Source: Nitrosococcus wardiae (GTDB lineage: Bacteria; Pseudomonadota; Gammaproteobacteria; Nitrosococcales; Nitrosococcaceae). Taken from it: DNA of 32,000 nt. Of the stretch, positions 10,109 to 24,137 are shown one piece after another. A model generated the notes under the pieces. It was not told the origin of the DNA and made no database searches. It saw only the letters and a program-made list of their open reading frames with translations. The number at the start of each line of letters is the position of its first letter. Position 1 is the first letter of the stretch. Position numbers and translations under genes: made by a program. Where the stretch lies: positions 173,659 to 205,658 of the forward strand of contig NZ_CP038033.1 in assembly GCF_004421105.1 (NCBI RefSeq), read 5' to 3'.

Positions 10109-10669
10109 CTAGGCGCTCGCTTCCTTTTTACCGCGGCGGGCAAACCAAACCATTAACCCTATAACAACAGCAGCAAAAGCAATAGCACCAATCCACTGAA
10201 CGGTCTGCTCTCCTTGAAGAGCAACCCGAATTGGCGCTTTGAACACCAACGGCTGATCACCCCCCAGGGTAACCACTGCAGTGTATTCTCCTGGATTAGC
10301 AAAAGCAGCCTCAAGCTCGATAGTCCCTTTCGGGTACCTCTGAACAGGTCGCTCCACTATGGTTTTGTAATTTGACGGACCCGAAGCGGTTTCCTGCTCT
10401 TCCACAACCCGAACTTCCACAGGCCGATCACGCAATACCCTTTCCACCAAGTCAAAAACCAAAATGGAATTTCCGGCGGTCGGCAAATCCCAGCATAACT
10501 CTTCCCCGCCAATGGTTTGTGGCTGGTAAGCGGTAAAGTGCATCCGATAATTACCGATATTAACAACACACTTATCCGCCTCGATTCCGCCCCCTCCATG
10601 GGCCATGGCAGAGGTGCTGGCTAACAATAATCCAAATAATGCAAAGCAGCTAAATAGTACTCTCTTCAT
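10109..10669 (-). CDS. amoD: AmoD/PmoD-family periplasmic copper protein, C-terminally membrane anchored
   Basis: It lies immediately downstream of amoB. Signal peptide (...STSAMA then HGGGG), a beta-rich domain of about 130 aa, and a single C-terminal TM helix (WIGAIAFAAVVIGLMVWF) followed by RRGKK. This architecture and synteny match the amoD/orf5 family. Confidence 0.75.
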   Translation of the reverse strand: MKRVLFSCFALFGLLLASTSAMAHGGGGIEADKCVVNIGNYRMHFTAYQPQTIGGEELCWDLPTAGNSILVFDLVERVLRDRPVEVRVVEEQETASGPSNYKTIVERPVQRYPKGTIELEAAFANPGEYTAVVTLGGDQPLVFKAPIRVALQGEQTVQWIGAIAFAAVVIGLMVWFARRGKKEASA

Positions 10670-10868: not shown

Positions 10869-12116
10869 TTAGACAAAGATTGGGATTAACGCCCCGCCAA
10901 CAGGGATCGGCAGTCTGTTCCCTTCGGCGTCGACAAAGAACAACAGTCCACCAAACCGGCTATCCGGATCGTAGATAACGTCAGCCATACGCTCGACTTC
11001 CCAAGCTGCATCGGTACCGGAGACTTCGACCACTACCGTTTCACCCGGAGCAATATCCTGCTGGCTCACTTCTAGCCCTTCCGGTGCCAATAGATTATCC
11101 GGATAATCCGTGTCATCTACAACCACATCAGGGTTCAAGAAGCGAATACCACCGGTGGCAAACTCGCCTATGGAAATAACTCCATCGGTATGGTTAGTGA
11201 TTTCAAGCTTCATTGAGATAGTCCGGCCCGGCACCCGATAGTTAGCCTTGAGCACATCGACCGACACCATCCTATCGTAATCGACCGGTAGCGGTTCAAT
11301 CTCACCTAGCAGACCAGCCTGCAAAGGCACAGTAACGGGATGCTTACTTTCGGCGCTCTGATAGCCATACAGAACGATGACGAGGACGCCGACCATTACA
11401 CCCAGGGTTACCTTCTTGTCTGTATCGGTGATGAGATCATTGGCCTCCCCTGCTTCTACTCTCATGTAGCGAGGTAAAAACATGGGACGGCGAGCCCACC
11501 ACCACATCCAAGCGATACCCAAAACATACCAGAACACGTGCCAACCAACGACGGTGCCTAGACCCAACCTTTCTATGTCAACGGTGTTACCCGTCAGGTC
11601 GGTGATGGGGTTTTCAAAGTCCTCAATATTACCCGTAATGGTTATATATTTGCCGGGACCGATAAGTGGACCGCCCCCCTCGATGTTCATCATGGTATGG
11701 ACGTGCCAAGTTCCCGGACGACGGCCTTTGAGTTCCACCGAAAAGCTATAATCGCCGCCGAGCTCGATACCCACTGAACGGGGCACGAACACGTCATTGA
11801 TGTAAGAAGACATCCGAGTGGACACCGGTCCAGGTTGACCGACATTCAAAAAGGACACATGGGGATGACGCACCGCTTCCGGCCAATCCTCGAAAACACG
11901 GAATTTGCCGCTCATGGTGTAGGTTTCGTTGACTGCAATCTGGTCCTTGGACCATTTAAGGTCATACCAATGGATGGTCCGCATCCGCAGGAAGGCGGCC
12001 TGTGACTTTTCACCGTGGGCGGCTACTGTAGGAACGTAGAAGACGCTCGATGCCACCACGGTGGCAAAGCCGATGGCTAGCCATTTTCTGGCTCGATTCA
12101 TTATATTACCTTTCAT
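10869..12116 (-). CDS. amoB: Ammonia (copper membrane) monooxygenase subunit B
   Basis: After the signal peptide, the mature N-terminus HGEKSQAAFLRMRTIHWYD is the hallmark PmoB/AmoB copper-binding N-terminus, and two internal TM helices follow. The track start at 12161 is a TTG only 3 nt after amoA. ATG 12116 (MKGNIM...) or ATG 12101 (MNRARK...) is more plausible. Confidence 0.93.
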   Translation of the reverse strand: MKGNIMNRARKWLAIGFATVVASSVFYVPTVAAHGEKSQAAFLRMRTIHWYDLKWSKDQIAVNETYTMSGKFRVFEDWPEAVRHPHVSFLNVGQPGPVSTRMSSYINDVFVPRSVGIELGGDYSFSVELKGRRPGTWHVHTMMNIEGGGPLIGPGKYITITGNIEDFENPITDLTGNTVDIERLGLGTVVGWHVFWYVLGIAWMWWWARRPMFLPRYMRVEAGEANDLITDTDKKVTLGVMVGVLVIVLYGYQSAESKHPVTVPLQAGLLGEIEPLPVDYDRMVSVDVLKANYRVPGRTISMKLEITNHTDGVISIGEFATGGIRFLNPDVVVDDTDYPDNLLAPEGLEVSQQDIAPGETVVVEVSGTDAAWEVERMADVIYDPDSRFGGLLFFVDAEGNRLPIPVGGALIPIFV

Positions 12117-12164
12117 GTTCTCCGTCTCTCTGTTTAGGATTTTAGAATTATTATCTTCCAAAAC

Positions 12165-12908
12165 TTACACTTGTTGGACGTTGTAATCTCTGGAGAACCA
12201 GCGGCCGACAAAGTGCCACGTAAAGTACATGACCATGCAAACAAAGCCTGAGAAGAATGCCGATACCGGAACGACGTCTTTACCAAATGTTCTCAGGGTA
12301 CCTTTCTCGACCATCCGGATATATTCAGGAGTACCCGTCCGAACATAGTGATACCCCATGATGTCGGCGATGGACATAACCAAGCCATTGTATTCCACGG
12401 GAACATGGTACTGGGCTAACAGCGGCCAGTTTGCAGGATAAAGCAACAAGCCGTAGAACAACCCACCCACGATGGCGGTCAAACCATAGCTCTTGGTCAG
12501 CACGAGAACGGCATCCAAGAACAAGGCCATGGGGACTAGAACGGCCGGCCAAACGAAGTTAATGGGGAAGTAGGTAAAACCGTAGAAGTTAAAGTAACGG
12601 TTAGCCCACTCACCGGCTAGCACCCCGAGCGTCACGATGGTGGCGCCAAAGGGAAGACGGAATCTTTCCCAGAAAAATGCCTGCATGGCGGCAGGGTAAG
12701 CAATCGCCACGATGGGAGCCACCGTGACCCACATGCGCCGGTCTTTCCAGTCAGTCCAGAAATCCCAGTCGCCAAACAGAAGCATACAGTGAACATGGTA
12801 CGAAGCGAGAAAAATACCGAAGAACGCTCCTAACGCTAACAAATCAAGCGTTCTAGAGATCTTTGCAGCTTCCTCCGGTGTACGAACCGCAGACGCAAGT
12901 GCACTCAT
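12165..12908 (-). CDS. amoA: Ammonia (copper membrane) monooxygenase subunit A
   Basis: 247 aa with GDWDFWTDWKDRRMW, GEWANRYFNF, and YVRTGTPEYIRMVEKGTLRTFGKDVVPVSAFFSGF. The N-terminus and the GEWANRYFNFYGFTYFPINFVWP block resemble Nitrosococcus AmoA more than methanotroph PmoA, from memory. AGGAGG Shine-Dalgarno 6 nt upstream. Confidence 0.95.
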   Translation of the reverse strand: MSALASAVRTPEEAAKISRTLDLLALGAFFGIFLASYHVHCMLLFGDWDFWTDWKDRRMWVTVAPIVAIAYPAAMQAFFWERFRLPFGATIVTLGVLAGEWANRYFNFYGFTYFPINFVWPAVLVPMALFLDAVLVLTKSYGLTAIVGGLFYGLLLYPANWPLLAQYHVPVEYNGLVMSIADIMGYHYVRTGTPEYIRMVEKGTLRTFGKDVVPVSAFFSGFVCMVMYFTWHFVGRWFSRDYNVQQV

Positions 12909-13260: not shown

Positions 13261-14037
13261 TCAGCTACGGGAGTAATCCGGGCTTTGCTGGAGCGACTGG
13301 CCAATTAGCTCGCGCATGCGGCCTTGGACCTGCAAGAATACGCCGAACATCGCCAGGATAAACCAAGCAAAGAACACAAAACCCCAATGCAGCGGTGCAA
13401 CAAACAACTCCTCCATGAACCAGAAGGTGTGACCCCACTCATTCAGGCCCACATTCGGGAAGATCATAAAGGGTCCAAACACCAACATCAGGTAAGGCAC
13501 AGACCAGCCCTTAGCAAAGTAAGGAATACGAGTCTTGGCATACACAAAGGAACCCAAGCCTACCATAACGTAGATCGGGTAACTCATGTAGAACTCGATA
13601 ATGTGGCTAGGAGTGAAGTCCGTATCCCGGACCACCGTCTGATGCCAGGTACCATCCTGCTCGGTAAAGAAGCTTGCACCCCAGAACAGACCAACGCCAT
13701 AAACCACCCACCACATATACAGGGTGCAGTAACGGCGCAGTTCCTCACGGGGTTGAACAGCCTCTATATTGCGATCCCGGGTCTTGATCAGGTAAGCCAC
13801 TAAGCCCGCAGTCGCTAACGCTTCAACAACGAGCTCAATGTACAGCAGATTCATCCAATACTTTTCGAATTCCGGAGTAAAGGAATCCAACCCGTACTTC
13901 CATCCGTAAACGCCTTCATACCAACGTACACCGATGTAGAAGATAAAGAATGCCGCGACGGCCCCCCACATACCTTTCCAGGCAAAGAGGGATTCCTCTT
14001 CAGCTACTCCCGCAACAGCTCTACTAGTTGCAGCCAT
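13261..14037 (-). CDS. amoC: Ammonia (copper membrane) monooxygenase subunit C
   Basis: 258 aa with FFTEQDGTWHQTVVRDTDFTPSHIIEFYMSYPIY and NEWGHTFWFMEELFVAPLHWGFV, the PmoC/AmoC metal-site region. AGGAGG Shine-Dalgarno 8 nt upstream of the ATG. Confidence 0.95.
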   Translation of the reverse strand: MAATSRAVAGVAEEESLFAWKGMWGAVAAFFIFYIGVRWYEGVYGWKYGLDSFTPEFEKYWMNLLYIELVVEALATAGLVAYLIKTRDRNIEAVQPREELRRYCTLYMWWVVYGVGLFWGASFFTEQDGTWHQTVVRDTDFTPSHIIEFYMSYPIYVMVGLGSFVYAKTRIPYFAKGWSVPYLMLVFGPFMIFPNVGLNEWGHTFWFMEELFVAPLHWGFVFFAWFILAMFGVFLQVQGRMRELIGQSLQQSPDYSRS

Positions 14038-14464: not shown

Positions 14465-15301
14465 ATGTCTACCCTTATTCTTCAAGGGCCGCAGTTAACT
14501 CTGGATCTGGCTAATCAAATTGCTCAACAAACTCATACCGAACTTCACCCCCAAGGACAAGGTTATCGGCTTTATGGCAGGCAACCGTTTTCCCCTCAAA
14601 CTTTAGCGAGGCTACGGTCAACTTATGAGGGTGTGGATATTAATCTCCTTCCGGAGGGCTACCACCCTGAGCAGGTACGCCTTCTAGTCACCGACATGGA
14701 CTCCACCTTTATTAATATTGAATGCATCAATGAAATTGCGGCCTTCTTTGGCAAAGAAACACAGGTTAGCAGGATCACTGCCGCCGCTATGCGAGGTGAA
14801 ATCAACTTTGAAACTTCTCTCATCCAACGGGTAGCGCTATTGAGGGGAGTCCCCGCCAACGTCCTTGCCGAAATCTATGAAAAGCGGCTTGCCGTCAACC
14901 CAGGGGGAGAAGCCTTGCTTGCTACACTGAGACAACGCGGTCTTAAAATCGCCTTAGTCTCTGGGGGGTTTACTTATTTTACCGAGCGTTTAAAGCAAGA
15001 ATACAATTTGGACTATACGCTAGCAAATCAGCTAGAAATTAAAAATAATCGGCTGACCGGCACTGTAGTAGGCAGTATCGTGGGAGCGACTGCTAAGGCC
15101 AGATTTTTGCAGAGGCTGTGCAAGGAATTAGATATCGAGACAAGACAGACAGTGGCTATCGGCGATGGAGCCAATGATTTGGAAATGTTGAGAGTTGCAG
15201 GCCTTAGTGTGGCTTACCATGCTAAACCCAAAGTACAGGCAGAAGCCCACGTCGCCCTTAACCATAGTGCTCTGGATGGAGTGTTACCCTTTTTATTTTG
15301 A
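14465..15301 (+). CDS. serB: Phosphoserine phosphatase
   Basis: HAD motif I DMDSTFI, EINFETSL, VSGGF, and GDGANDL. The N-terminal extension of about 70 aa is typical of SerB. Confidence 0.85.
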   Translation: MSTLILQGPQLTLDLANQIAQQTHTELHPQGQGYRLYGRQPFSPQTLARLRSTYEGVDINLLPEGYHPEQVRLLVTDMDSTFINIECINEIAAFFGKETQVSRITAAAMRGEINFETSLIQRVALLRGVPANVLAEIYEKRLAVNPGGEALLATLRQRGLKIALVSGGFTYFTERLKQEYNLDYTLANQLEIKNNRLTGTVVGSIVGATAKARFLQRLCKELDIETRQTVAIGDGANDLEMLRVAGLSVAYHAKPKVQAEAHVALNHSALDGVLPFLF

Positions 15302-15353
15302 TAAATGATGGAAACCTGCTGTCCATTGTTCGATCCCGTAGAAGGAGATGCCC

Positions 15354-15806
15354 ATGTCAGTGGGACAATATTGCAATCGCGAGGTTATTGTGGCCTCTCA
15401 GGACACCTCTATTTTAGAGGTCGCGCAGCTGATGCGTCGGCACCATGTGGGAGATGTACTTATAGTAGAACAGCAAAGGGAACAGAATATCCCTATCGGC
15501 ATTGTGACTGATCGCGATCTCGTTGTTGAAATCTTAGCCGAGGAGGTATCCCCAGATGCTGTCACGGTGAGGGATGTCATGAGCCCTGTAATCACCATAC
15601 CTGAGAAAGCGGACCTTTGGGACACCCTACAGCAGATGAGGTATCAAGGTATCCGGCGGATGCCCGTGGTCAACGAGAAAGGTGGCCTAGAGGGGATTCT
15701 GACGGTTGATGATGTCCTGGCATTGCTTGCCGAGGGGCTTACCGATCTCGTTAAGCTGATAAAACATGAAATAGAACAAGAAGCTCGCTTGCGGAGTAAG
15801 CCTTAA
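15354..15806 (+). CDS. CBS domain pair protein
   Basis: Two CBS repeats (VIVASQDTSILEVAQLMRRHHVGDVLIV and VITIPEKADLWDTLQQMRYQGIRRMPVV). The track start is 15348, but GAAGGAG (15341..15347) abuts it and is well spaced for ATG 15354. Confidence 0.8.
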   Translation: MSVGQYCNREVIVASQDTSILEVAQLMRRHHVGDVLIVEQQREQNIPIGIVTDRDLVVEILAEEVSPDAVTVRDVMSPVITIPEKADLWDTLQQMRYQGIRRMPVVNEKGGLEGILTVDDVLALLAEGLTDLVKLIKHEIEQEARLRSKP

Positions 15807-15939: not shown

Positions 15940-16983
15940 TTACTTGCCAAACGACCACCACTTACGCGGCTTGGCTTCCGGCTTAGAAACCTGTTGTTGC
16001 TGCGCGGCTTCCTTTGTTTTTGCCACAGCCTTACGCTTGAAACGCCCCAGACCCACAATCGCCAGCCCTAGGCCTGCCAAACCTGCGCCCAAGGAGGAGC
16101 CTATCGTGCTCCAACTGGTTTCCGTTTCATAGGGATCCGGATAGTTTGGCGCTGTAAGCCCGGGAATGCTGGGGAAATCTTGATCGCCACTCCCTACTTT
16201 TAGTTGGGCCTTCATGCCTTTTTCCGTGTGTTGGGCAATATCGCAGTGGACAAAATAGGTTTTTTCCACGCTTGGCACGATAAAGGTACCCGTTCGACGA
16301 CCCGGCCCTGCCACCTCAAGGTGAAACATTCCCTGAGGATAGATGTACTTGGGCAACATGTGAACCATCCATTGGTGGCGAACCTTGTCCTCATTAATAA
16401 AGGTGACTGTAATGCGCGTACAGGGTTCGACTTTCCATTCATGTTGGTCAAAACCAAACACTGTTCCTGGAAACTCTTTAGCATACTTAGTCCCTGCTCG
16501 CACTGTAATTTCCACATCACCGGCAAGCTGAGGGCAATCACGGGGCAAGTTATCCGTATTTTCATTCATGACCATGCCCTCAGCATCCATATCCATCATG
16601 TGGTGTTCATGCTTAAATTCATGATGAATGTGAGCCTCTTCTTCCTCAGAAGACGGCTTGACTTTTACCTCTGCTGCCTCTGCCGGATGCTCATGGTGGT
16701 GGTGATGCTCCGGCTCTTCAGTTGCCGCTGCTTCTCCTTCAGCCTCCGTTTTTCTTTCAGCCTGAGCCTCCTGGGCCGAATTTTTTGCCTTCGAATCCGG
16801 CGTAGGCTGCCCTTTATCTTGAGCATCCGCATCCCCCGGGTGCTCATGATGATGGTGATGTTCCGGCGCAGCCGCTTCGGATGGCGGCTTGCTCTGCTCT
16901 GGGCTGTCAGCCGATTCTACCGCGGCGACACCAAGGGAAAACATAAGTGCCGCACTAAAAATGAGCCATTGATATCCAACCAT
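15940..16983 (-). CDS. His/Met-rich, membrane-anchored type-1 cupredoxin (CopI-like)
   Basis: Signal peptide, then an acidic low-complexity region with EHHHHHEHP twice plus HIHHEFKHEHHMMDMDAEGMVM (18 His in residues 41..128). A cupredoxin domain follows, with RHQWMVH and YFVHCDIAQHTEKGMKAQLKV (Cys-x4-His-x4-Met). A C-terminal TM helix (LGAGLAGLGLAIVGLG) and a Lys-rich tail complete it. Confidence 0.75.
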   Translation of the reverse strand: MVGYQWLIFSAALMFSLGVAAVESADSPEQSKPPSEAAAPEHHHHHEHPGDADAQDKGQPTPDSKAKNSAQEAQAERKTEAEGEAAATEEPEHHHHHEHPAEAAEVKVKPSSEEEEAHIHHEFKHEHHMMDMDAEGMVMNENTDNLPRDCPQLAGDVEITVRAGTKYAKEFPGTVFGFDQHEWKVEPCTRITVTFINEDKVRHQWMVHMLPKYIYPQGMFHLEVAGPGRRTGTFIVPSVEKTYFVHCDIAQHTEKGMKAQLKVGSGDQDFPSIPGLTAPNYPDPYETETSWSTIGSSLGAGLAGLGLAIVGLGRFKRKAVAKTKEAAQQQQVSKPEAKPRKWWSFGK

Positions 16984-16989
16984 TTCTAC

Positions 16990-18678
16990 TTACACCTCCT
17001 GGGGACGGCGCCGCCTAAAAATCCTAATTAGGCGAACCCCAATGACAATACCGCCGAGCAGCACACCTATCCCGAAAGAAACCAAGACTGGCTGAAGCTG
17101 CAGTTGGGCAGGTGCCTTGTTAACATCGCCAAACAAGTTTTCTTGGTCGAAGCTCGCCCATACCGGCACTTCCCTTTGATAGAATTCCTTACTAAAGTAG
17201 GGTTTGAGATCAACTCCCCTGCCCAGTGGCAAGCCATTTTCGCTGAGAAACGATTCATAGACAATGTTGGTTACGTCCCCGCCGGGATTTACCCCATCGG
17301 TGGTGACCGCCCTCTCCGTGTGATCATGCAACAGCCAAATCCCTTCCCCATAGCTGTGCAAGCCATCAATAGAGGTATTCAAAGTTAAATCGAGGCGCTG
17401 GGCTGGCCCCACGGTATAGACGTCCCGGGTGATCCAGGCCTCCGGGTTATGGGGCGCGCCATCATAGGCGGTAATAGTCATCTTATGGCCATGGCTATGC
17501 ACATAAACAGGATCTTGGCCTGCATTCGCCATCCGAAGCTTCACCTGCTCATCAGGTTTTACCACTACCAGCGATTCTCGAATGGTATAGGGAAAAGAAC
17601 GTCCATTAAGCAGAAAATAGTTGGTTGGCTCTTCAGTTATGTTGTAATCGCGGTTAATGGCCTGGGCGATCAAGCGGGCATCATTGGCGATTTTAATCTT
17701 ATCTGCCAACGTCTGATCGACACTCTGATAAAGAAGATCATATTCTCGATCAAAGGATTCTTTTATCGCCACCGAGGGATGGCGCACTTGTCCTCCTCCC
17801 ACATTCAAGGTCTGAACCCAGTTATTGGGGCGATTTTCTTCCACCGCCATTATCCCTACTAATCCCATCCCAATATGGGAATGGGGTTGAACATGGCAAT
17901 GGTAAAGCATAGTCCCCGCATGCCGGGGAGTCATTTCGTAGGTACGACTCTCTCCAGGCATCACAGGCAATTCACTGGTCTGGGGAACCCCATCATTCCC
18001 TTCGCCTGCTGCATCGATAAAGGGATGATCAACCCCATGAAAATGGATGGTATGGGGCAAATAGTGGGTGTTTTCAAGAGTAACTTTTATCGTATCCCCC
18101 TGCTCAACACGGAGAGTGGGGGACGGGGCCCGCAGATAGTAATTGGCCTGCAGACTCTCGAAATTAAGAGTGGACATGCCCCGGGTCTTGGGGGCAAAAA
18201 CCCAGAATCCAGGTTGGACGCCCGGCGCAACAGAGTAAGCGGGAATAGGCGCCGGGAAATCTGGTGAGAATCCGTTTAACTCAGCCACTTCCAGCCGAAC
18301 ATGAATCACATCCGGGTCGCCGTCCCCATCCCGGTCCTTACCTTTGGTCACAGCGTCCATCGCGAGCTGGGTCTCCATAATGGTGTCATGGGAGACGTTG
18401 TTCGTACCTTTTACGAAGGCCGCGATATCCGCCGGGTTATCCGGATTGCAAAGAGGCGAAGCTTTCACCGCCACCCCATCAATTACCTGAGGCTCTCGCC
18501 AGACGGGATCTACCTCAGGACAAATCGGCTCGTTGTCCAATTCAGCCAGACTGAAGCTTTCAGCCGCCGGAGGTCGTTGATAGGGAGCCGATTGCACGAC
18601 AGAGGGAAGCAAGAAAGCAACGCCCCCCAGTCCTATCACGGTGGCTAAGAAAGCTTGACGTATACTTATCATTTGCAT
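16990..18678 (-). CDS. Multicopper oxidase with permuted copper-motif order, C-terminally membrane anchored
   Basis: Signal peptide MQMISIRQAFLATVIGLGGVAFLLPSVVQSA. The copper motifs are HTIHFHG, then HCHVQPHSHIGM (Cys282 codon at 17896..17898), then HSHGH, then LLHDH. A C-terminal TM helix (VLVSFGIGVLLGGIVIGV) is followed by RLIRIFRRRR. The track start at 18741 is a TTG. ATG 18678 starts the signal peptide. Confidence 0.85.
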   Translation of the reverse strand: MQMISIRQAFLATVIGLGGVAFLLPSVVQSAPYQRPPAAESFSLAELDNEPICPEVDPVWREPQVIDGVAVKASPLCNPDNPADIAAFVKGTNNVSHDTIMETQLAMDAVTKGKDRDGDGDPDVIHVRLEVAELNGFSPDFPAPIPAYSVAPGVQPGFWVFAPKTRGMSTLNFESLQANYYLRAPSPTLRVEQGDTIKVTLENTHYLPHTIHFHGVDHPFIDAAGEGNDGVPQTSELPVMPGESRTYEMTPRHAGTMLYHCHVQPHSHIGMGLVGIMAVEENRPNNWVQTLNVGGGQVRHPSVAIKESFDREYDLLYQSVDQTLADKIKIANDARLIAQAINRDYNITEEPTNYFLLNGRSFPYTIRESLVVVKPDEQVKLRMANAGQDPVYVHSHGHKMTITAYDGAPHNPEAWITRDVYTVGPAQRLDLTLNTSIDGLHSYGEGIWLLHDHTERAVTTDGVNPGGDVTNIVYESFLSENGLPLGRGVDLKPYFSKEFYQREVPVWASFDQENLFGDVNKAPAQLQLQPVLVSFGIGVLLGGIVIGVRLIRIFRRRRPQEV

Positions 18679-19435: not shown

Positions 19436-19464
19436 AGTATAGTGAGGATCATACCTCATGACAA
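19436..19464 (-). promoter_or_regulatory. Candidate sigma70 promoter (TTGTCA-N17-TATACT) for the 37-codon ORF
   Basis: On the minus strand the -35 TTGTCA is at 19464..19459 and the -10 TATACT at 19441..19436, with a 17-nt spacer. It lies just after the spoVR stop. Confidence 0.4.
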
Positions 19465-19479: not shown

Positions 19480-20922
19480 TCAACGAAAACGGCCTAGGGT
19501 TTTTTGTACAAAGCCATCCTCCCCATAACCCAGGCGGACTTTCCTATCATTAAGCTGAGTTTCTAGCCACACATCCCGTTCCCAAAGCTGGTAGAGATGG
19601 GCGAGTGTCCTCTCAGCATATTCTGCCTGGAGGTCACGTCCATCATGCTGATGTTTAAGATAAAGCTGTCGGTTATGCCCATAATCGGCATCCTCGATCC
19701 GAATAACAGGGATCCCCCCCATGCCCACATTCTTTAGTAAGGTTTCTTTGACCTCACGCCAATGTTCCTCATCAGAGATCTTACTAACCACCAGATCCTC
19801 CCCCTTGGGCTGGTATTCAAACATGTCCATCTCGCGCATCAATGCCTCGGTCAGGAAACGGCGCAAGAAAGAGGTATCCCTATCGACTTCGCGAACCTGA
19901 AAGATTTTCTCATGGCCCCCCAATTGGGGTTCACCGTAGCGTTCCCTTTCTTCTGGAGAGGGGACCTCGCAGCGACGGTAAATATCATGCCAAATTTTAA
20001 AACCTAAATAATAGGGATTAATATCACCAGGATGGGGGCGCACCACCTGATTGTGATGAACTAAGAATTCAAGATAGAGATCCTGGGGTAAATCCAAACT
20101 ATTCATAATTTTATGGTGCCAATAACTGGCCCAACCCTCGTTCATGATCTTAGTTTCTATCTGAGGGATAAAATAGCGTGCCTGCTCATGTACAATAGTG
20201 AGCAAATCCCGCTCCCAGTTAGCAAGGTAGGGATTGTTATCCCGGATAAAGAGTAAGATATCCTCTTCCGGAAACAAGGGAAAATGATTCAGATCGGGCT
20301 CTACGTACTCAGGCTGTTTATGCAATTCTCCATAGGGATCAGGAGCAGGATGGGCAGCAGCTAGCACCTGCTCCCTTTGCTCTTCGGGACTCAGCTTGCG
20401 TATCGCTTGGTTTCTGCGGCACTGTAGGGATAAAGCATGGGCCGCATCAAGCACTGCCTCTACCTTATCAAGACCAATGGAAGGATCTTCAATATAATCC
20501 CGTACCCGATCAGCACGAAGTTTGAAGTTAGAAAGAGTCAGTTCAGGTTGGGTATCCCTAAAAGTAAAGTTATTTTTAAAAAAATCGTTATGGCCATAGA
20601 CATGGGCAATAGTCAGAATCTGCAAGCACAGAGAATTCTCCCGCACTAAATAGGCTAATGCAGGATTTGAGTTGATAACCATTTCATAGGGTAGTCCGCT
20701 CACTCCATGCTCGTAAAGGGTCTGAAGCTTCTCGTAGGCTTTGCCATAGGACCAGTGGGGATAATGGGCAGGCATACCCGAGTAGGCCATATAGCCCAGC
20801 ATTTGGGCATGGTCACACACTTCAAATTCCTGAGGAAAGCAAGACAGCCCAAACTCCTCGACTTTTTCACGAATTTTGGCATCCCAATATTCTAGATCCT
20901 TAATCGTCCAATGACTGGCCAT
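19480..20922 (-). CDS. SpoVR/YcgB-family protein
   Basis: 480 aa, with NEGWASYWH and the overall sequence typical of the SpoVR family. It is the third gene of the conserved prkA-yeaH-spoVR trio. Confidence 0.9.
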   Translation of the reverse strand: MASHWTIKDLEYWDAKIREKVEEFGLSCFPQEFEVCDHAQMLGYMAYSGMPAHYPHWSYGKAYEKLQTLYEHGVSGLPYEMVINSNPALAYLVRENSLCLQILTIAHVYGHNDFFKNNFTFRDTQPELTLSNFKLRADRVRDYIEDPSIGLDKVEAVLDAAHALSLQCRRNQAIRKLSPEEQREQVLAAAHPAPDPYGELHKQPEYVEPDLNHFPLFPEEDILLFIRDNNPYLANWERDLLTIVHEQARYFIPQIETKIMNEGWASYWHHKIMNSLDLPQDLYLEFLVHHNQVVRPHPGDINPYYLGFKIWHDIYRRCEVPSPEERERYGEPQLGGHEKIFQVREVDRDTSFLRRFLTEALMREMDMFEYQPKGEDLVVSKISDEEHWREVKETLLKNVGMGGIPVIRIEDADYGHNRQLYLKHQHDGRDLQAEYAERTLAHLYQLWERDVWLETQLNDRKVRLGYGEDGFVQKTLGRFR

Positions 20923-20960
20923 ACTATTTACCCCAGCATTTTCACTTTATTGAATAAAAT

Positions 20961-22151
20961 TTATTCATATTCACTGTTCTCCCGCTCTCGGGATAATAGC
21001 TGCCTAAAACTAGGCCAAATATCTTCCTTGCGTTGGATTAACACAGGCTGGAAATTATCAGCCCTAACGTTTCGGAATAAATCTAACATAGTCCCCTCAT
21101 AGAAACCCGAAGGTCGGGGTTTGATCTCGCCATAGCCAAATAAATTACAGGCCTGGCACAGTTCTTCGGCAGCTTTTAAGGTGGCAACATTATCGCTATC
21201 AAAATTGTCACCATCTGAGCAATGAAAAGCATAAATATTCCATAAGGAAGGGTGATAGCGATTCTGAATCACCTCTAACGCTTTGTGGTAGCCTGAAGAG
21301 ATAAAAGTGCCGCCGGATTCACCCTTATGAAAAAACTCCTCCTCCGTCACTTCCCGGGCTTTAGTGTGATGGGCGATGAAAACCACATCCACATGAGCGT
21401 AACGGGAGCGGACAAACTGGTAGAGTAAAAAGAAAAAGCTCCGTGCCAGATACTTCTTTAATGTATCCATAGAACCAGAGGTATCCATAATACAGAGCAC
21501 TACGGCATTGGACTGGGGGCGCAAATCCTCCCGTAGCCGGTGATAGCGCATATCATCACGATGGAAGGGGAACCGCCGTTCTGGCTCGCTGGTCCCACTG
21601 GCCTTATTACTTGCCAAGCGCCGCCTAACCCGAGCCTTAGCTGTGCGCCGCTTATCCATATGGACCCGAACACCGACACGACGGAAGCCTTTTCGCTTGC
21701 TGGTACGCTCCGATAATACTTCACGGAAACGCTTACGTTCCAAGTCTGGCAGTTCTAGATCCTCAAACATAATCTCGATCAACTCTTCCAGAGTGATCTC
21801 AGTCTCATAATAATCCATGCCTGGACGGTCACCGGCATGGCCCGGCCCCCCATCCCCCTGAGACGCTTCGCCCACAGTTTGGCCAGGCTCCGAATCTCCC
21901 TGGCCTGTGCCTACTCCCGGCGTATTCCGTCCATAAACAAAACGGTATTCCCGAATGCCTCGAATGGGAACTTTGACAATACGATCGCGGCTTTGACCAA
22001 TAATGGACTCCTCAGCCACAATATCAGCCACATTATCACGGATGGCTCTCCGCACCTTCTGCCGGTGCCGTAACCGATCTCTGGCGCTGCGGTCCGAACG
22101 TAAAGCATCAGATTGAGAATAAGGACGGAACACTGTAGTCATAATATTCAT
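20961..22151 (-). CDS. YeaH/YhbH-family protein (DUF444, vWA-like)
   Basis: 396 aa with a basic N-terminal region (RDRLRHRQKV) and a MIDAS-like CIMDTSGSMD motif. The gene follows prkA. Confidence 0.9.
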   Translation of the reverse strand: MNIMTTVFRPYSQSDALRSDRSARDRLRHRQKVRRAIRDNVADIVAEESIIGQSRDRIVKVPIRGIREYRFVYGRNTPGVGTGQGDSEPGQTVGEASQGDGGPGHAGDRPGMDYYETEITLEELIEIMFEDLELPDLERKRFREVLSERTSKRKGFRRVGVRVHMDKRRTAKARVRRRLASNKASGTSEPERRFPFHRDDMRYHRLREDLRPQSNAVVLCIMDTSGSMDTLKKYLARSFFFLLYQFVRSRYAHVDVVFIAHHTKAREVTEEEFFHKGESGGTFISSGYHKALEVIQNRYHPSLWNIYAFHCSDGDNFDSDNVATLKAAEELCQACNLFGYGEIKPRPSGFYEGTMLDLFRNVRADNFQPVLIQRKEDIWPSFRQLLSRERENSEYE

Positions 22152-22205
22152 CGCTCAGGCATATTCTGTACATAGTTCAGACATTGCTATATCCAACTCT
22201 CCTCT

Positions 22206-24137
22206 TTAATCTTTCCACAGGTTATTGGCGGCATATTTCAACACCACCTCTGCCGAATATTCGTTGTAGCCCCGCTCAAGGAGATTTTTGAGCAAATCAT
22301 CATATTTCTTGGTCTGCTCCTCATCCCGGGTCCGGGATTTGGTAATAATACGGCTTATATCCCGCACCGAACTGGTCAGTTTTTTCTCAATGGCTTCCTT
22401 TAAGGGTTCGTATGACTGATAACTTATCTTTTCACCACGGCGGGTAGCCGCCCAGAGAAAAGCAATCACTTCCTGCCGAAAACCCTCGGCAGCACTGCCT
22501 ACAATAGCGATTTGCTCCTCCACCGATTTTAAGAAATTCTCGTCAGGCTGTAATTCTTCCCGTGTATCCCGATCCTTAACCCGGGTCTTATTCACATAAG
22601 CCTCAGCATGATCCAAGTAATTCTGGAATAAGGTCTCTGCTTGTTCTTCATAGGAGTAAACAAAAGCTTTAGTGATTTCCTTTTCCAAAACCTCAAGATA
22701 AACCTTATGTAAGGTGTCTTGGAGCAGTTCCAGATAGTGCTTCCGAACATCGTCCGCCAGCTCCGATTGCTTGACCATGGTGATCAAGGCCTCACGGACG
22801 TTGATGGGGTTAATCCCCTCCTCACTATCGGCCAGTGCATTATCCAGGGCCTTGGTGATGAAGCGGGTTGAAATGCCAAACATTCCTTCTCGGGAAGCAG
22901 CCTCCTGAAGTTCCTTGGCATTAATCTTGAGAGTAGTTCCTTTCTCTACAACCTCCTCGCCATTATAGAGCCGCAGTTTGGTCATCAAGTCACATTTAGG
23001 GGTAGGCTCTAATCGGGAAAGAATAGCAAACATGGAGGCTAATTCGAGCGTATGAGGAGCAATATGGGCCCGGAAATCAGAGTGGCGCAAAAGCTTCTCA
23101 TAGATTTTGATTTCCTCTGACAGACGCAGATTATAAGGAACCTTAATGACTACAATCCGGTCGAGAATAGCCTCGTTAGTATGGTCGGCTTTGAATTTCT
23201 GCCACTCAGCTTCATTGGAGTGGGCAACGATACAGGTATCCACATACACGGTACCGTGGCGACCAGGAGCCGGGACAAACTTCTCCTGGGTGGCCGTAAT
23301 CATAGAATGCAGATACTCAGTCTCGTTTTTAAAGACCTCGATGAATTCCACCACACCTCGGTTGCCCACATTAAAAGCGCCATTTAGGTCTAGCACTCGA
23401 GGATCGCCTTCGGAGTAGATGTCCAGTTTGGAGATATCCTCTGAGCCAATGAGCACTGAAGTATCCTGGTTATTGGGATCTACCGGCGGTACCACACCAA
23501 TACCCCGGCGATCCCGCTTGGAAAAGTCTGCGGTAATGACCGGTACGTCTTCATAACGGCCATCAAACTCTTCTTTGAGACGAAAACGGCATACAGGGCA
23601 CAAATCGCCCTCAATATGGACATCGAGCATCTTCTCAAATTCTTTTCGTAAATGGCGCGGTAGAAGATGCAACGGTTCCTCACGCATCGGACAGCCGTCG
23701 ATGGCATAAATGGGCTCTGCCTTCTCTAATCCCCGGTGCAAATGCTCGATAAGAGAGCTCTTACCGGCTCCCACAGGCCCCATCAAATAGAGTACCTGGC
23801 GGCTTTCTTCCCCATGCAGGGACGCCGAATGGAAATAACGTACTAGTTGGGCTAAGGTCCGCTCGATACCAAAGAATTCGTCCTTGAAAAAGTCATAGAC
23901 TTTCACCGGCTCATCGCCATAGAGGCGCTTGACATGAGGATCGCCCAAAGCATGGATGTCCTCCGCCCCCTCCCGCATGATCATGTCATAAACCCGAGAA
24001 TGAGCTAGCCTCGCAATAGTAGGATCCTTTTTGACTTTTTCTAAATAATCAATAAACGTTCCACGCCATTCCTGACGTTCTCGCTTTGCTCGGTCTTTTT
24101 TAATAATCTCAGTAAATCCGTTTTTTGTATCGACCAC
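22206..24137 (-). CDS. prkA: PrkA/YeaG-family AAA+ protein (annotated Ser protein kinase)
   Basis: P-loop LMGPVGAGKSSL. The N-terminus (EWRGTFIDYLEKVKKDPTIARLAHSRVYDMI) resembles Bacillus PrkA. The first 16 codons of the track ORF lack support. GTG 24137 has AGGAGG 6 nt upstream. Confidence 0.9.
   Translation of the reverse strand: MVDTKNGFTEIIKKDRAKRERQEWRGTFIDYLEKVKKDPTIARLAHSRVYDMIMREGAEDIHALGDPHVKRLYGDEPVKVYDFFKDEFFGIERTLAQLVRYFHSASLHGEESRQVLYLMGPVGAGKSSLIEHLHRGLEKAEPIYAIDGCPMREEPLHLLPRHLRKEFEKMLDVHIEGDLCPVCRFRLKEEFDGRYEDVPVITADFSKRDRRGIGVVPPVDPNNQDTSVLIGSEDISKLDIYSEGDPRVLDLNGAFNVGNRGVVEFIEVFKNETEYLHSMITATQEKFVPAPGRHGTVYVDTCIVAHSNEAEWQKFKADHTNEAILDRIVVIKVPYNLRLSEEIKIYEKLLRHSDFRAHIAPHTLELASMFAILSRLEPTPKCDLMTKLRLYNGEEVVEKGTTLKINAKELQEAASREGMFGISTRFITKALDNALADSEEGINPINVREALITMVKQSELADDVRKHYLELLQDTLHKVYLEVLEKEITKAFVYSYEEQAETLFQNYLDHAEAYVNKTRVKDRDTREELQPDENFLKSVEEQIAIVGSAAEGFRQEVIAFLWAATRRGEKISYQSYEPLKEAIEKKLTSSVRDISRIITKSRTRDEEQTKKYDDLLKNLLERGYNEYSAEVVLKYAANNLWKD

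What the first reader, a model, noticed from the sequence alone, without database searches (positions are those of the whole stretch)
15940..18678. Two-gene, tail-anchored copper module (permuted multicopper oxidase plus His/Met-rich cupredoxin) beside amoCABD
Two same-strand genes are separated by only 6 nt (16984..16989). Each encodes a protein with an N-terminal signal peptide, copper-binding domains, and a single C-terminal TM helix followed by an Arg/Lys tail, so the proteins face the periplasm and are tethered by their tails. AmoD (10109..10669) has exactly the same topology. The pair lies 1.9 kb from the amoC start, with only serB and a CBS gene between. That makes three tail-anchored periplasmic copper proteins within 9 kb of a copper monooxygenase, which suggests a dedicated membrane-surface copper redox, delivery or electron-transfer set for AMO. 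A more ordinary alternative is a copper detoxification pair (Cu(I) oxidase plus CopI-like binder). The oxidase has the NirK-like motif layout, so a role in N-oxide chemistry is also conceivable. That would bear on the unresolved NO-to-nitrite step of bacterial ammonia oxidation, but it is pure inference. I know of no functional description of this gene pair.
Basis: partly seen in the sequence, partly recalled or inferred. Interest (0 to 1): 0.75.

Follow-up and report, generated by a model that had tools for sequence, protein, structure and literature searches.

The report
Copper oxidase pair linked to monooxygenases
Beside the ammonia monooxygenase genes of a Nitrosococcus sit two membrane-anchored copper proteins, an oxidase and a small blue-copper partner, and the same pair recurs next to related methane, alkane and ammonia monooxygenase genes in several bacterial phyla, so it is probably an overlooked copper-handling accessory of these enzymes.

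Summary
Genes at 16990-18678(-) and 15940-16983(-) lie 6 nt apart. Each product has hydrophobic segments only at its N- and C-termini.

- **Large protein.** It is a complete type C two-domain multicopper oxidase (T1 copper in the N-terminal domain, full trinuclear ligand set). It is not permuted and not a NirK.
- **Small protein.** It belongs to an uncharacterised cupredoxin family with no Pfam or NCBIfam model. It carries a T1 ligand set, an invariant Met/His/His/Asp set at half-trinuclear-cluster positions, and a His/Met-rich leader.
- **Pairing.** The small gene follows the oxidase in 70/73 genome loci and 50/50 metagenome loci.
- **PmoD/AmoD.** A homolog sits directly upstream in 52/74 and 24/44 loci.
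- **xmoCAB.** The monooxygenase genes sit directly upstream in 23/57 and 7/27 loci, spanning Binatia, Methylococcales, Methylomirabilota and Alpha/Gammaproteobacteria.
- **Fusions.** Natural fusions join oxidase to cupredoxin, and CopC-CopD to cupredoxin.

Best reading: a two-subunit, membrane-tethered copper oxidase working with AmoD in periplasmic copper redox handling for AMO. The gene linkage is shown; the biochemistry is inferred. An N-oxide role is unlikely. I rate it a new variant of a known kind, interest about 0.68.

The parts
16990..18678 (-). Multicopper oxidase gene, 562 aa, a type C two-domain MCO with extra N-terminal domain and C-terminal membrane anchor
   Evidence: ORF. Pfam Cu-oxidase_3/2/1. 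Best solved relatives are 2zwn and 3g5w, by sequence (E 2e-31 and 2e-30) and by fold. AF2 model pLDDT 88.
18586..18663 (-). Oxidase residues 6-31: N-terminal hydrophobic segment, either a signal peptide or a signal anchor
   Evidence: Hydropathy scan. Helix 2-26 in the model. Present in 76 of 79 homologs. Cleavage was not tested.
18139..18561 (-). Oxidase residues 40-180: family-specific N-terminal domain with invariant Cys53/Cys77 and a DxDxDGDxD motif, absent from 3g5w and 2zwn
   Evidence: Invariant columns. pLDDT above 90. No Pfam match. PDB matches start at residue 183.
17824..18132 (-). Oxidase cupredoxin domain 1: T1 ligands His209, Cys261, His268, Met271, and trinuclear-cluster ligands His212, His214, His260, His262
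   Evidence: His209, His212, His214, His260, Cys261, His262 and His268 are invariant in 66 sequences; Met271 is at least 90% conserved. Motifs align with 3g5w and 2zwn.
17179..17631 (-). Oxidase cupredoxin domain 2: trinuclear-cluster ligands His394, His396, His451, His453 (HSH and HDH), with no Cys and so no T1 site
17014..17103 (-). Oxidase residues 526-555: C-terminal transmembrane helix followed by RIFRRRR
   Evidence: window protein, and 74 of 79 homologs. Helix 528-556 in the model.
16984..17002 (-). AGGAGG ribosome-binding site inside the oxidase 3' end, stop codon and 6-nt spacer before the small gene, indicating one transcription unit
   Evidence: Sequence read directly.
15940..16983 (-). 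Small cupredoxin gene, 347 aa, 100% identical to a Nitrosococcus wardiae protein
   Evidence: No Pfam or NCBIfam family at threshold.
16909..16983 (-). Small protein residues 1-25: N-terminal signal-like hydrophobic segment
16609..16908 (-). Small protein residues 26-125: disordered His-rich region (two copies of EHHHHHEHP). Its length varies across the family and it is longest in ammonia oxidisers
   Evidence: pLDDT about 45-55. Alignment shows most homologs are about 225 aa. A Nitrosomonas homolog also has a long His-rich stretch.
16189..16608 (-). Small protein residues 126-265: conserved His/Met motif (HHMMDMDAEGMVMNEN) plus cupredoxin domain. T1 set is His203, Cys247, His252, Met257. Met206, His208, His246 and Asp248 occupy half-trinuclear-cluster positions
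   Evidence: His203, Met206, His208, His246, Cys247, Asp248 and His252 are invariant in 64 sequences; Met257 is at least 90% conserved. pLDDT 87-97. Foldseek finds auracyanin and T1 domains of MCOs. Motif register to oxidase domain 1 comes from one search, which is a weak alignment.
16048..16104 (-). Small protein residues 294-312: C-terminal transmembrane helix followed by RFKRK
   Evidence: Helix 291-331 in the model.
10109..10669 (-). amoD (PmoD family, Cx8MH class). It is most similar (37-45% identity) to the PmoD copy that lies between pmoB and the oxidase in Binatia loci
   Evidence: Motif class as defined in PMC6189053.
10869..14037 (-). amoC (13261-14037), amoA (12165-12908) and amoB (10869-12161): the copper membrane monooxygenase that the module accompanies
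   Evidence: ORFs. The same gene order in N. oceani carries Pfam AmoC, AMO and Monooxygenase_B.
19436..19464 (-). Candidate sigma-70-like promoter (TTGTCA-17-TATACT) about 760 nt upstream of the oxidase start; weak evidence only
   Evidence: Eleven such sites were found against 6.8 expected from shuffles, so this is not significant by itself.

Best explanation
The two genes encode the subunits of one membrane-tethered, periplasm-facing multicopper oxidase system. With AmoD they form a conserved accessory module (PmoD - oxidase - cupredoxin) of copper membrane monooxygenases.

The large subunit is a self-sufficient type C two-domain oxidase. It takes electrons at the T1 copper of domain 1 and reduces O2 to water at a trinuclear cluster built between subunits of a trimer.

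The small subunit is a single oxidase-like cupredoxin domain. Its T1 copper is wired through the His246-Cys247 bridge to a remodelled surface site (Met206, His208, His246, Asp248). A conserved His/Met-rich leader flanks that site.

I propose that this site and leader capture labile periplasmic copper. Cu(I) is oxidised there, and the electron passes from the small subunit's T1 to the oxidase T1 and on to O2. The resulting Cu(II) is the form handled by Cu(II)-specific carriers (AmoD/PmoD, and CopC or YcnI where present) that supply or protect AMO.

What is shown: gene structure, ligand sets, predicted topology, conserved synteny and the fusions. What is inferred: the physical complex, the substrate, and the direction of copper and electron flow.
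For: Enzyme identity:
- Pfam MCO domains.
- Closest solved relatives are 2zwn and the Nitrosomonas europaea oxidase 3g5w, by sequence and by fold.
- The three T1 His/Cys ligands and all eight trinuclear-cluster His are invariant in 66 homologs; the axial Met271 is at least 90% conserved.

Small subunit:
- The cupredoxin fold is predicted with high confidence and resembles T1 domains.
- His203, Cys247 and His252, together with Met206, His208, His246 and Asp248, are invariant in 64 homologs; the axial Met257 is at least 90% conserved.
- The leader motif HHxHHGMxMDxxGMVMNEN is conserved.

The two work together:
- A 6-nt gap with the ribosome-binding site inside the upstream gene.
- Adjacency in 70/73 and 50/50 loci.
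- Natural oxidase-cupredoxin fusions. P0305 has no membrane helix between the parts; P0283, P0311, P0374, P0375 and P0377 are further examples.

Link to copper membrane monooxygenases:
- PmoD lies directly upstream in 52/74 and 24/44 loci.
- xmoAB lies directly upstream in 23/57 and 7/27 loci.
- Synteny with amoCABD is kept in N. oceani.
- Window AmoD is most similar to the PmoD copy that precedes the oxidase in Binatia.

Copper handling rather than electron supply:
- The cupredoxin domain is fused to CopC-CopD (P0258, P0263, P0269).
- Locus L167 reads AmoC-AmoA-AmoB-PmoD-oxidase-YcnI(DUF1775)-CopCD::cupredoxin, with a Csp copper-storage gene nearby.
- Locus L168 reads YcnI-CopCD::cupredoxin-oxidase, with SCO1 nearby.

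Expression:
- In M. capsulatus Bath, an MCO-family gene (MCA2129) and the adjacent pmoD homolog (MCA2130) are both lower without copper (-2.35 and -3.94; PMC4831470 supplement; direction as stated in PMC6688271).
Against: - There is no biochemical or genetic datum for any member of either family.
- The alignment of the small protein to oxidase domain 1 is weak (hhalign E 0.045, probability 1.2%). The 'half-cluster' reading therefore rests on motif register and known MCO/NirK geometry, not on a measured structure.
- Model coordinates could not be inspected, and no complex could be predicted.
- In Nitrosococcus the pair is not in the amo operon, because serB and the CBS gene on the other strand separate them.
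- Some loci have PmoD-cupredoxin-DedA without the oxidase, and some paralogous oxidases lack the cupredoxin. The partnership is therefore not obligatory.
- Asp248 is replaced by Ser or Gly in the archaeal-type fusions.
- I did not verify that MCA2129 belongs to this exact oxidase family.
- Each locus sample is the best 80 of more than 500 matches, so it is biased towards closer relatives.
Confidence: 0.5

Rival explanations
1. Electron-transfer chain for the monooxygenase. The tethered T1 cupredoxin, perhaps through the CuA-type site of PmoD/AmoD, carries electrons to or from AMO/pMMO, whose physiological reductant is unsettled. The oxidase acts as a redox-poising or overflow valve.
For: Three membrane-tethered cupredoxin-type proteins are co-encoded with xmoCAB. 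PmoD has been suggested to act in assembly or electron transfer (PMC8262859). The small protein has a canonical T1 site. PmoD-cupredoxin loci without the oxidase exist.
Against: A four-electron O2-reducing oxidase would waste the reductant. The cupredoxin domain is fused to the copper importer CopCD and embedded among YcnI, Csp and SCO1 genes. Fused oxidase-cupredoxin enzymes occur in an archaeal-type genome with no PmoD upstream. The conserved His/Met leader and the Met/His/Asp site look like metal-ion binding sites rather than a protein-docking surface.
Confidence: 0.2
2. Generic periplasmic copper detoxification: a CueO/PcoA-like Cu(I) oxidase plus a CopI/PcoC-like binder. Its position beside amo is only lineage synteny, with no dedicated role for AMO.
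For: MCOs next to copper genes are usually cuprous oxidases (established knowledge of CueO and PcoA). Fused homologs occur without a monooxygenase context (L166). L168 shows CopCD, the oxidase and SCO1 but no xmoCAB within 6 kb. Loci L012, L019, L021, L039 and L055 have neither a monooxygenase gene nor PmoD in the flanks.
Against: Adjacency to pmoD or xmoCAB recurs across several phyla, and PmoD is restricted to monooxygenase-encoding genomes. No copA, cus or copRS genes are conserved neighbours or present in the window. The oxidase is far below NCBIfam cut-offs for CopA-type (48 vs 479 bits) and CueO (36 vs 525 bits).
Confidence: 0.13
3. Oxidase for another substrate, such as Mn(II), Fe(II), phenolics or a metabolite, with the cupredoxin as an electron-entry domain.
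For: JGI labels several homologs 'manganese oxidase'. Type C two-domain MCOs such as 2zwn were deposited as laccases. Cupredoxin partners of metal permeases that oxidise the transported metal are known, for example FtrB (PMC11966278).
Against: The labels are automatic and untested. Every conserved neighbour with a known role concerns copper or the monooxygenase. There is no iron or manganese transporter in the module.
Confidence: 0.09
4. N-oxide or hydroxylamine chemistry: NirK-like activity, or activity like the Nitrosopumilus MCO that oxidises NH2OH, feeding into the NO-to-nitrite step of ammonia oxidation.
For: T1 lies in the N-terminal domain as in NirK. Foldseek also lists NirKs and the N. 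maritimus MCO with a C-terminal cupredoxin domain, 9cck. That archaeal enzyme consumes NH2OH with O2 (PMC13058606). The His-rich leader is longest in ammonia oxidisers.
Against: The full eight-His trinuclear set is invariant, and the position of NirK's catalytic Asp is a cluster His (His212). TIGR02376 scores 39 bits against a cut-off of 296. The module accompanies methane-type and alkane-type monooxygenases in Methylococcales and Binatia, so its conserved role cannot be specific to nitrification.
Confidence: 0.05

Closest known systems
Type C two-domain multicopper oxidases: Nitrosomonas europaea blue copper oxidase (PDB 3g5w) and metagenomic mgLAC (PDB 2zwn)
   Same: Two cupredoxin domains. 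T1 ligands sit only in the N-terminal domain, with the same Cys-x6-His-x2-Met loop. The four HxH-type motifs include HDH in domain 2. These are the best sequence and fold matches. The class definition is taken from PMC13151041.
   Different: Only about 23-25% identity over the fold alignment. The window protein is 562 aa against about 320 aa. It adds a conserved 140-aa N-terminal domain, a 65-aa interdomain insert and a C-terminal membrane anchor. It has an obligate-looking cupredoxin partner gene. Trimer formation was not tested.
Three-domain cuprous oxidases CueO, PcoA and CopA
   Same: A proposed Cu(I) oxidase role, a Met-rich element next to a T1 site, and periplasmic location.
   Different: Different architecture: two domains plus one separate domain, with the Met/His element on the separate subunit. 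Far below NCBIfam cut-offs. No resistance-operon context. Membrane anchored.
Nitrosopumilus maritimus MCO with a C-terminal cupredoxin domain (PDB 9cck, Nmar_1354)
   Same: A NirK/MCO-like two-domain core plus an extra T1-type cupredoxin domain, in an ammonia oxidiser. This parallels the oxidase-cupredoxin fusions found here.
   Different: A distant sequence relative (E about 1e-13, domain 1 only). Fused rather than split. Reported to oxidise NH2OH, which is unlikely to be the conserved role here.
PmoD/AmoD accessory proteins of pMMO/AMO (Fisher et al. 2018, PMC6189053)
   Same: The third member of the module has the same N-terminal signal plus C-terminal anchor topology. That paper already coloured PmoD sequence networks by proximity to MCO genes and noted a PmoD class 'commonly near' MCOs.
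   Different: PmoD is a different fold family. The oxidase and its cupredoxin partner were not analysed or named in that paper.
FtrB, the cupredoxin component of the FtrABCD iron transporter
   Same: A single cupredoxin-type periplasmic protein that changes the redox state of a metal ion next to its permease (PMC11966278). It is analogous to the CopCD::cupredoxin fusions.
   Different: No detectable sequence relationship was tested. FtrB acts on iron and lacks the T1 Cys site.
CopI-type periplasmic His/Met-rich cupredoxins
   Same: A small cupredoxin with a His/Met-rich region implicated in copper tolerance (from memory only).
   Different: Not tested here, because no CopI sequence or model was available in the tools. 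The window protein is membrane anchored and keeps oxidase-type His residues flanking the T1 ligands.

Membership tests
Type C two-domain multicopper oxidase | Two cupredoxin domains recognised by MCO profiles | tested here: met
   Pfam Cu-oxidase_3 (81 bits), Cu-oxidase_2 (69 bits) and Cu-oxidase (30 bits), all above their cut-offs. Two matched stretches to 2zwn and 3g5w.
Type C two-domain multicopper oxidase | T1 copper ligands (His, Cys, His, Met) in the N-terminal domain only | tested here: met
   His209, Cys261 and His268 are invariant, and Met271 is at least 90% conserved. Domain 2 has HDH with no Cys.
Type C two-domain multicopper oxidase | Eight His ligands of the trinuclear cluster in four HxH-type motifs | tested here: met
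   His212/214, His260/262, His394/396 and His451/453 are invariant in 66 sequences and align with 3g5w and 2zwn.
Type C two-domain multicopper oxidase | Homotrimer with the trinuclear cluster at subunit interfaces, and O2-reducing oxidase activity | not testable with these tools
   Only monomer prediction was available. No assay is possible.
Copper nitrite reductase (NirK) | Type 2 site with three His plus catalytic Asp/His, and score above the TIGR02376 cut-off | tested here: not met
   TIGR02376 scores 39 bits against a cut-off of 296. The catalytic Asp position is His212, and the full trinuclear set is present.
CueO / CopA(PcoA) cuprous oxidases | Three-domain single-chain MCO reaching the NCBIfam equivalog or subfamily score | tested here: not met
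   copper_res_A scores 48 bits against 479. CueO scores 36 bits against 525.
Type 1 (blue) copper cupredoxin (small protein) | Cupredoxin fold with a His...Cys...His...Met ligand set | tested here: met
   AF2 domain 130-265 has pLDDT above 87. Foldseek matches auracyanin and MCO T1 domains with probability 1.00. His203, Cys247 and His252 are invariant and Met257 is at least 90% conserved.
Type 1 (blue) copper cupredoxin (small protein) | Membership of a curated cupredoxin or MCO sequence family | tested here: not met
   No Pfam or NCBIfam hit at threshold. The best is Cu-oxidase_2 at 19.3 bits against 20.4. The PDB profile search gives only E 0.004. It is a distinct, unnamed family with 289 clusters among 1.84 billion representatives.
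PmoD/AmoD | Signal peptide, conserved Cys pair with Cx8MH motif, C-terminal transmembrane helix, and location after amoB | tested here: met
   The sequence reads C-VVNIGNYR-MH ... EELC. Topology. Homologs next to pmoB and the oxidase. Motif classes from PMC6189053.
CopI-like copper-tolerance cupredoxin | Sequence or fold similarity to CopI | not tested
   No CopI reference was available in the tools used.

The most novel reading that the evidence does not exclude
PmoD/AmoD, the tethered oxidase and its cupredoxin together form the missing maturation or activation machinery of copper membrane monooxygenases. They would set the redox state of copper and load or reload it into the AMO/pMMO active sites at the membrane surface. 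Their absence would then be one reason why isolated or heterologously expressed pMMO and AMO have low or no activity.
Probability: 0.2. Interest if true: 0.9.

Novelty: new variant of a known kind. Interest (0 to 1): 0.68.

Why it matters
How AMO and pMMO acquire, keep and redox-poise their copper is unresolved, and so is why they lose activity outside the cell. AMO has never been obtained as an active pure enzyme.

Here a three-gene module (PmoD, oxidase, cupredoxin) is conserved next to the structural genes across ammonia, methane and probably alkane oxidisers in several phyla. In some genomes it is fused to the CopCD copper importer. This gives a concrete, testable candidate for that accessory function. 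It also gives gene candidates to co-express when attempting recombinant pMMO or AMO.

Separately, the finding defines an unnamed cupredoxin family in which T1 copper is wired to a remodelled half-trinuclear site. It also documents a split (2+1 domain) version of a multicopper oxidase, which bears on how these enzymes evolved.

Tried and rejected
- **Second N. wardiae oxidase.** Context of the paralog P0015 could not be retrieved.
- **Literature on N. oceani locus tags.** Searches for Noc_2505 to Noc_2507 found nothing. The N. oceani genome paper is not held.
- **MCA2129 membership.** I tried to show that M. capsulatus MCA2129 belongs to this exact oxidase family. It was not among the listed hits or cluster members, so only genus-level presence (Methylococcus sp. 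EFPC2) is established.
- **Small protein versus oxidase.** Profile-profile comparison gave only a weak match. I use it for motif register only.
- **PDB sequence searches with the small protein.** These gave chance hits to His tags and weak blue-copper matches.
- **Non-coding features.** Rfam and tRNA scans of the window found nothing. Promoter and terminator scans were not above shuffled expectation.
- **'Permuted MCO' rejected.** The layout is the known type C class.
- **NirK membership rejected** (and the ligand analysis).
- **'Manganese oxidase' label.** It appears on some JGI homologs. I treated it as an untested automatic annotation, and a MoxA literature search gave no link.

Full report
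**Where the window comes from.** The window is from a Nitrosococcus. The small protein of the finding is 100% identical to a Nitrosococcus wardiae protein, and the oxidase is 84-90% identical to those of N. halophilus, N. oceani and N. watsonii. On the minus strand lie amoC (13261-14037), amoA (12165-12908), amoB (10869-12161) and amoD (10109-10669). On the plus strand lie serB (14465-15301) and a CBS-pair gene (15348-15806). Back on the minus strand are the small gene (15940-16983) and the oxidase gene (16990-18678). The rest of the window is housekeeping: trpEGDC, rpe, suf genes, and prkA-DUF444-spoVR. It holds no copA, cus or copRS genes, no Rfam match and no tRNA.

**Checking the observation.** The coordinates are right.
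- The oxidase stop codon TAA (16990-16992) is followed by GTAGAA and then the ATG of the small gene. An AGGAGG sits inside the oxidase 3' end. This is the signature of one transcription unit.
- The ATG at 18678 matches the N-termini of the Nitrosococcus orthologs.
- A hydropathy scan finds hydrophobic 19-mers only at the two ends of each of the three proteins (oxidase, small protein, AmoD). Each C-terminal segment is followed by an Arg/Lys cluster. The AlphaFold models place helices at the same ends.
- The C-terminal anchor is a family trait. It is present in 74 of 79 oxidase homologs, in 68 of 71 PmoD homologs, and in 53 of 71 small-protein homologs under a strict threshold; the small-protein anchors are Gly/Ala-rich and score lower.
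- Whether the N-terminal segment is cleaved was not testable. In many non-Nitrosococcus oxidases it looks like an uncleaved anchor, and some carry an RR pair.

**What the large protein is.**
- Pfam finds all three MCO domain models.
- The best solved relatives are the metagenomic two-domain laccase 2zwn and the Nitrosomonas europaea blue copper oxidase 3g5w. This holds both by sequence (E 2e-31 and 2e-30, in two stretches covering residues 183-285 and 350-500) and by fold (E 9e-27 and 1.5e-25).
- Domain 1 carries H209-T-I-H212-F-H214 and H260-C261-H262...H268..M271. Domain 2 carries H394-S-H396 and H451-D-H453. The His and Cys positions are invariant in 66 homologs, and Met271 is at least 90% conserved.
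- This gives a T1 site in the N-terminal domain plus the eight His of a trinuclear cluster. That layout defines type C two-domain MCOs, which are trimers with the cluster between protomers (PMC13151041).
- The layout is therefore not a permutation, and the protein is not a NirK. The position of NirK's catalytic Asp is a cluster His, and TIGR02376 scores 39 bits against a cut-off of 296.
- The protein is also far from CueO and CopA/PcoA equivalogs.
- Relative to 3g5w and 2zwn it has three additions: a confidently folded, conserved 140-residue N-terminal domain (invariant Cys53/Cys77 and a D115-x-D-x-DGDPD motif; no Pfam match), a roughly 65-residue insert between the domains, and the C-terminal anchor.

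**What the small protein is.**
- No Pfam or NCBIfam model reaches threshold. The best is Cu-oxidase_2 at 19.3 bits against 20.4, over the Cys loop.
- No solved structure is detectable by sequence beyond E 0.004.
- A profile search of 1.84 billion representative proteins finds only 289 clusters (97 at E up to 1e-30). This is a narrow, distinct family.
- The AlphaFold model has four parts: a signal-like helix, a disordered His-rich stretch (residues 26-125), a confident cupredoxin domain (130-265, pLDDT 87-97) into which the conserved MMDMDAEGMVMNEN segment is folded as a beta-hairpin, and a C-terminal helix.
- Foldseek matches auracyanin and the T1 domains of two- and three-domain MCOs.
- Invariant in 64 homologs are R202-H203-Q-W-M206-x-H208 and H246-C247-D248...H252; Met257 is at least 90% conserved.
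- The Cys-x4-His-x4-Met spacing is the MCO T1 spacing.
- In register with oxidase domain 1, H203 corresponds to the T1 His. M206 and H208 correspond to the two cluster His of HxxHxH. H246 and D248 correspond to the two His flanking the Cys. That alignment is weak (E 0.045), so I rely on motif register.
- In MCOs and NirK, the residues at the H208 and H246 positions bind the same copper, which is coupled to T1 through the Cys-His bridge. This is established knowledge of those families.
- The small protein therefore looks like an oxidase-type domain whose half of the cluster has been remodelled to Met/His/His/Asp on what would be an exposed face. A His/Met-rich leader flanks it.
- The leader varies in length. 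Most homologs are about 225 aa. It is expanded in Nitrosococcus, Nitrosoglobus and a Nitrosomonas MAG.

**The pair is conserved and belongs to a larger module.**
- *Genome scan with the oxidase alignment.* A scan of one genome per species found more than 500 relatives, of which the best 80 loci were fetched. By record title, 41 are Methylococcales-type methanotrophs, 17 are Binatia, and one each is Nitrosomonas and Methylomirabilota. The remainder are mostly unclassified Alpha/Gammaproteobacteria.
- *Counts in those loci.* The small gene lies within 700 bp downstream, on the same strand, in 70 of 73 evaluable loci. A PmoD/AmoD homolog lies directly upstream in 52 of 74. PmoA and PmoB lie directly upstream on the same strand in 23 of 57.
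- *Typical orders.* The Binatia order is pmoD'-C-A-(x)-B-pmoD-oxidase-cupredoxin-PQQ alcohol dehydrogenase. The Methylococcales order is pmoD-oxidase-cupredoxin-DedA-like protein.
- *Independent metagenome scan with the small-protein alignment.* The oxidase lies upstream in 50 of 50 loci that contain an oxidase. PmoD is adjacent in 24 of 44. PmoAB is upstream in 7 of 27. At least five loci read PmoD-cupredoxin-DedA with no oxidase.
- *Other conserved neighbours.* All are lineage-specific. None is a copper-resistance gene.
- *Why PmoD adjacency matters.* According to Fisher et al., PmoD homologs occur only in genomes that encode a copper membrane monooxygenase (PMC6189053). PmoD adjacency alone therefore places most carriers among such organisms.
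- *Substrate range.* Binatia monooxygenases are of methane-type (TUSC) and short-chain-alkane-type lineages (PMC8262859). The module thus accompanies monooxygenases of different substrate classes.
- *Within Nitrosococcus.* In N. oceani ATCC 19707 the order is spoVR-oxidase-cupredoxin-serB(opposite strand)-amoCABD, as in the window but without the CBS gene.
- *Orthology of AmoD.* The window's AmoD is most similar (37-45% identity) to the PmoD copy between pmoB and the oxidase in Binatia. This suggests an ancestral CAB-D-oxidase-cupredoxin arrangement that was rearranged in Nitrosococcus. One metagenome contig (L106) has oxidase-cupredoxin-pmoC directly.

**Fusions.** The profile search turned up multi-domain proteins.
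- P0305 (712 aa) is the oxidase followed, with no intervening membrane helix, by the His/Met motif, the cupredoxin domain and a single C-terminal anchor. P0283, P0311, P0374 and P0377 are similar. P0375 has the cupredoxin first.
- These Rosetta-stone fusions argue that the two window proteins act as one enzyme.
- P0305 sits in a genome region with haloarchaeal-type HalOD1 genes and has no PmoD upstream. The core enzyme therefore predates, or is independent of, the monooxygenase link.
- P0258, P0263 and P0269 (722-766 aa) are CopC-CopD-FixH-like-His/Met motif-cupredoxin-anchor proteins.
- Locus L167 reads AmoC-AmoA-AmoB-PmoD-oxidase (46% identical to the window's)-DUF1775/YcnI-CopCD::cupredoxin, followed by DUF2946 and PepSY_TM genes and a Csp copper-storage gene. 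Its AmoA is 63% identical to the window's.
- Locus L168 reads YcnI-CopCD::cupredoxin-oxidase, with SCO1/SenC nearby.
- In the CopCD fusions the axial Met is Leu. In the archaeal-type fusions Asp248 is Ser or Gly. H203, M206, H208, H246, C247 and H252 are kept throughout.

**Expression evidence from the literature.** In Methylococcus capsulatus Bath, an MCO-family gene (MCA2129) and the adjacent hypothetical gene MCA2130 change by -2.35 and -3.94 (q = 0) (supplement of PMC4831470). PMC6688271 identifies MCA2130 as a pmoD homolog next to an MCO that is down-regulated without copper. I could not confirm that MCA2129 is a member of this exact family. The family is present in Methylococcus sp. EFPC2 with the full PmoD-oxidase-cupredoxin order, and in Methylocaldum, Methylomagnum, Methylogaea, Methylospira and Methylomonas paludis.

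**How it most likely works.**
- *Shown:* two co-translated, membrane-anchored, periplasm-facing copper proteins; a complete oxidase; a T1 cupredoxin with an additional conserved Met/His/His/Asp set and a His/Met leader; conserved linkage to PmoD and xmoCAB; and fusions to each other and to CopCD.
- *Inferred:* the small subunit binds labile copper at the leader and remodelled site. Cu(I) is oxidised there. The electron goes through the His246-Cys247 bridge to its T1, then to the oxidase T1, and on to O2 at the trinuclear cluster.
- *Consequence:* this would keep periplasmic copper as Cu(II), the form bound by CopC-type and YcnI-type carriers (from my knowledge of those families), and presumably handed to AmoD/PmoD. 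It would both supply the monooxygenase and limit Cu(I) toxicity at a membrane packed with a copper enzyme.
- CueO's labile Met/Asp copper site next to T1, and FtrB at the Ftr iron permease, are functional precedents.
- *Confidence:* I put about 0.85 on 'accessory module genetically tied to copper membrane monooxygenases', about 0.5 on 'copper redox handling', and less on the detailed electron path.

**Rivals.**
- An electron-delivery role for the monooxygenase (0.2) fits three tethered cupredoxin-type proteins. It fits poorly with a four-electron oxidase and with the CopCD, YcnI, Csp and SCO1 contexts.
- Generic detoxification (0.13) fits the monooxygenase-free relatives. It does not fit the recurrent adjacency or the absence of resistance genes.
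- Another substrate such as Mn(II) (0.09) rests only on automatic labels.
- N-oxide chemistry (0.05) is disfavoured by the ligand set and by the module's presence with methane-type and alkane-type enzymes.

**Novelty.** Type C two-domain MCOs are known. PmoD-MCO proximity has been remarked on in passing (PMC6189053, PMC6688271). In the searchable literature I found no description of the cupredoxin partner family, the conserved pairing, the anchors, the fusions, or the pmoCAB-pmoD-oxidase-cupredoxin operons. I therefore rate it a new variant of a known kind, with interest 0.68. It offers a concrete handle on the long-standing problem of copper supply to and activation of AMO and pMMO. Its function is still inferred.

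Noticed in passing
window 9319-9828 (-) and 8802-9233 (-); L055 12447-12965: A 169-aa lipoprotein and a 143-aa membrane protein follow amoD. Both are conserved at the same place in N. oceani (75% and 64% identity). A 53%-identical homolog of the lipoprotein lies directly downstream of the small cupredoxin in a Gammaproteobacteria MAG (L055). The lipoprotein may be a further member of the module.
   Followed up: partly
window 15348-15806 (+): The CBS-pair gene between serB and the small cupredoxin gene is absent from the corresponding position in N. oceani ATCC 19707, where only serB separates the pair from amoC.
   Followed up: partly
window 19480-24182 (-): A prkA - DUF444 (yeaH-like) - spoVR (ycgB-like) triad lies directly upstream of the oxidase. 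It is conserved in N. oceani at 87-90% identity for the DUF444 and spoVR products; prkA was not compared. No relation to the finding is apparent.
   Followed up: no
P0015 (N. wardiae) and P0013 (Nitrosoglobus); L163/L164 10001-11668: Gamma-proteobacterial ammonia oxidisers carry a second, paralogous oxidase of the same family (62-66% identity). In Nitrosoglobus it is solitary, with no cupredoxin and no PmoD, and it sits next to 4HFCP synthase and formyltransferase (H4MPT-pathway) genes. Context in N. wardiae could not be retrieved.
   Followed up: partly
L023, L025, L033, L038, L069 just upstream of the oxidase; also 8 metagenome loci: In some Methylococcales a roughly 180-aa lipoprotein replaces PmoD directly upstream of the oxidase. 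It has a weak Ig-like/CarboxypepD_reg-like match and a strictly conserved C-terminus GFRGDPTKQYGGWH.
   Followed up: partly
L024, L026, L032, L052, L053, L057 and others, directly downstream of the small gene: A 141-aa DedA/VTT-domain membrane protein follows the cupredoxin in 23 genome loci of Methylococcales. It also follows it in the metagenome variants PmoD-cupredoxin-DedA that lack the oxidase.
   Followed up: partly
L001-L015, L020, L035, L040 (Binatia), about +2.5 kb from the oxidase: A PQQ-dependent alcohol dehydrogenase gene follows the cupredoxin directly. The operon therefore reads monooxygenase - PmoD - oxidase - cupredoxin - alcohol dehydrogenase. The monooxygenase genes have the C-A-x-B order described for Binatota.
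   Followed up: partly
L038 and L069, 7.1-9.3 kb: In a methanotrophic endosymbiont and a Methylomarinum MAG, genes that by eye resemble heme d1 biosynthesis genes (two AsnC-type nirD/L/G/H-like, one radical-SAM nirJ-like) lie just upstream of the lipoprotein-oxidase-cupredoxin set. This was not checked with profiles.
   Followed up: no
L002, L012, L019 (record titles): Three MAG records titled 'uncultured Enterobacteriaceae bacterium' carry the oxidase-cupredoxin pair, and L002 has the full Binatia-type gene order. The taxonomic labels are probably wrong.
   Followed up: no
window 16204-17031 (+): A 275-aa ORF runs antisense to the small gene. It is Cys/Phe/Leu/Arg-rich low-complexity sequence mirroring the His/Glu-rich coding strand. 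It is most likely a shadow ORF, not a gene.
   Followed up: no
window 10869-12161 (-): The mechanical amoB ORF starts at a TTG and gives 430 aa. The N. oceani AmoB is called at 416 aa, so the true start is probably the internal ATG (MKGNIMNRARKW... or MNRARKW...).
   Followed up: no
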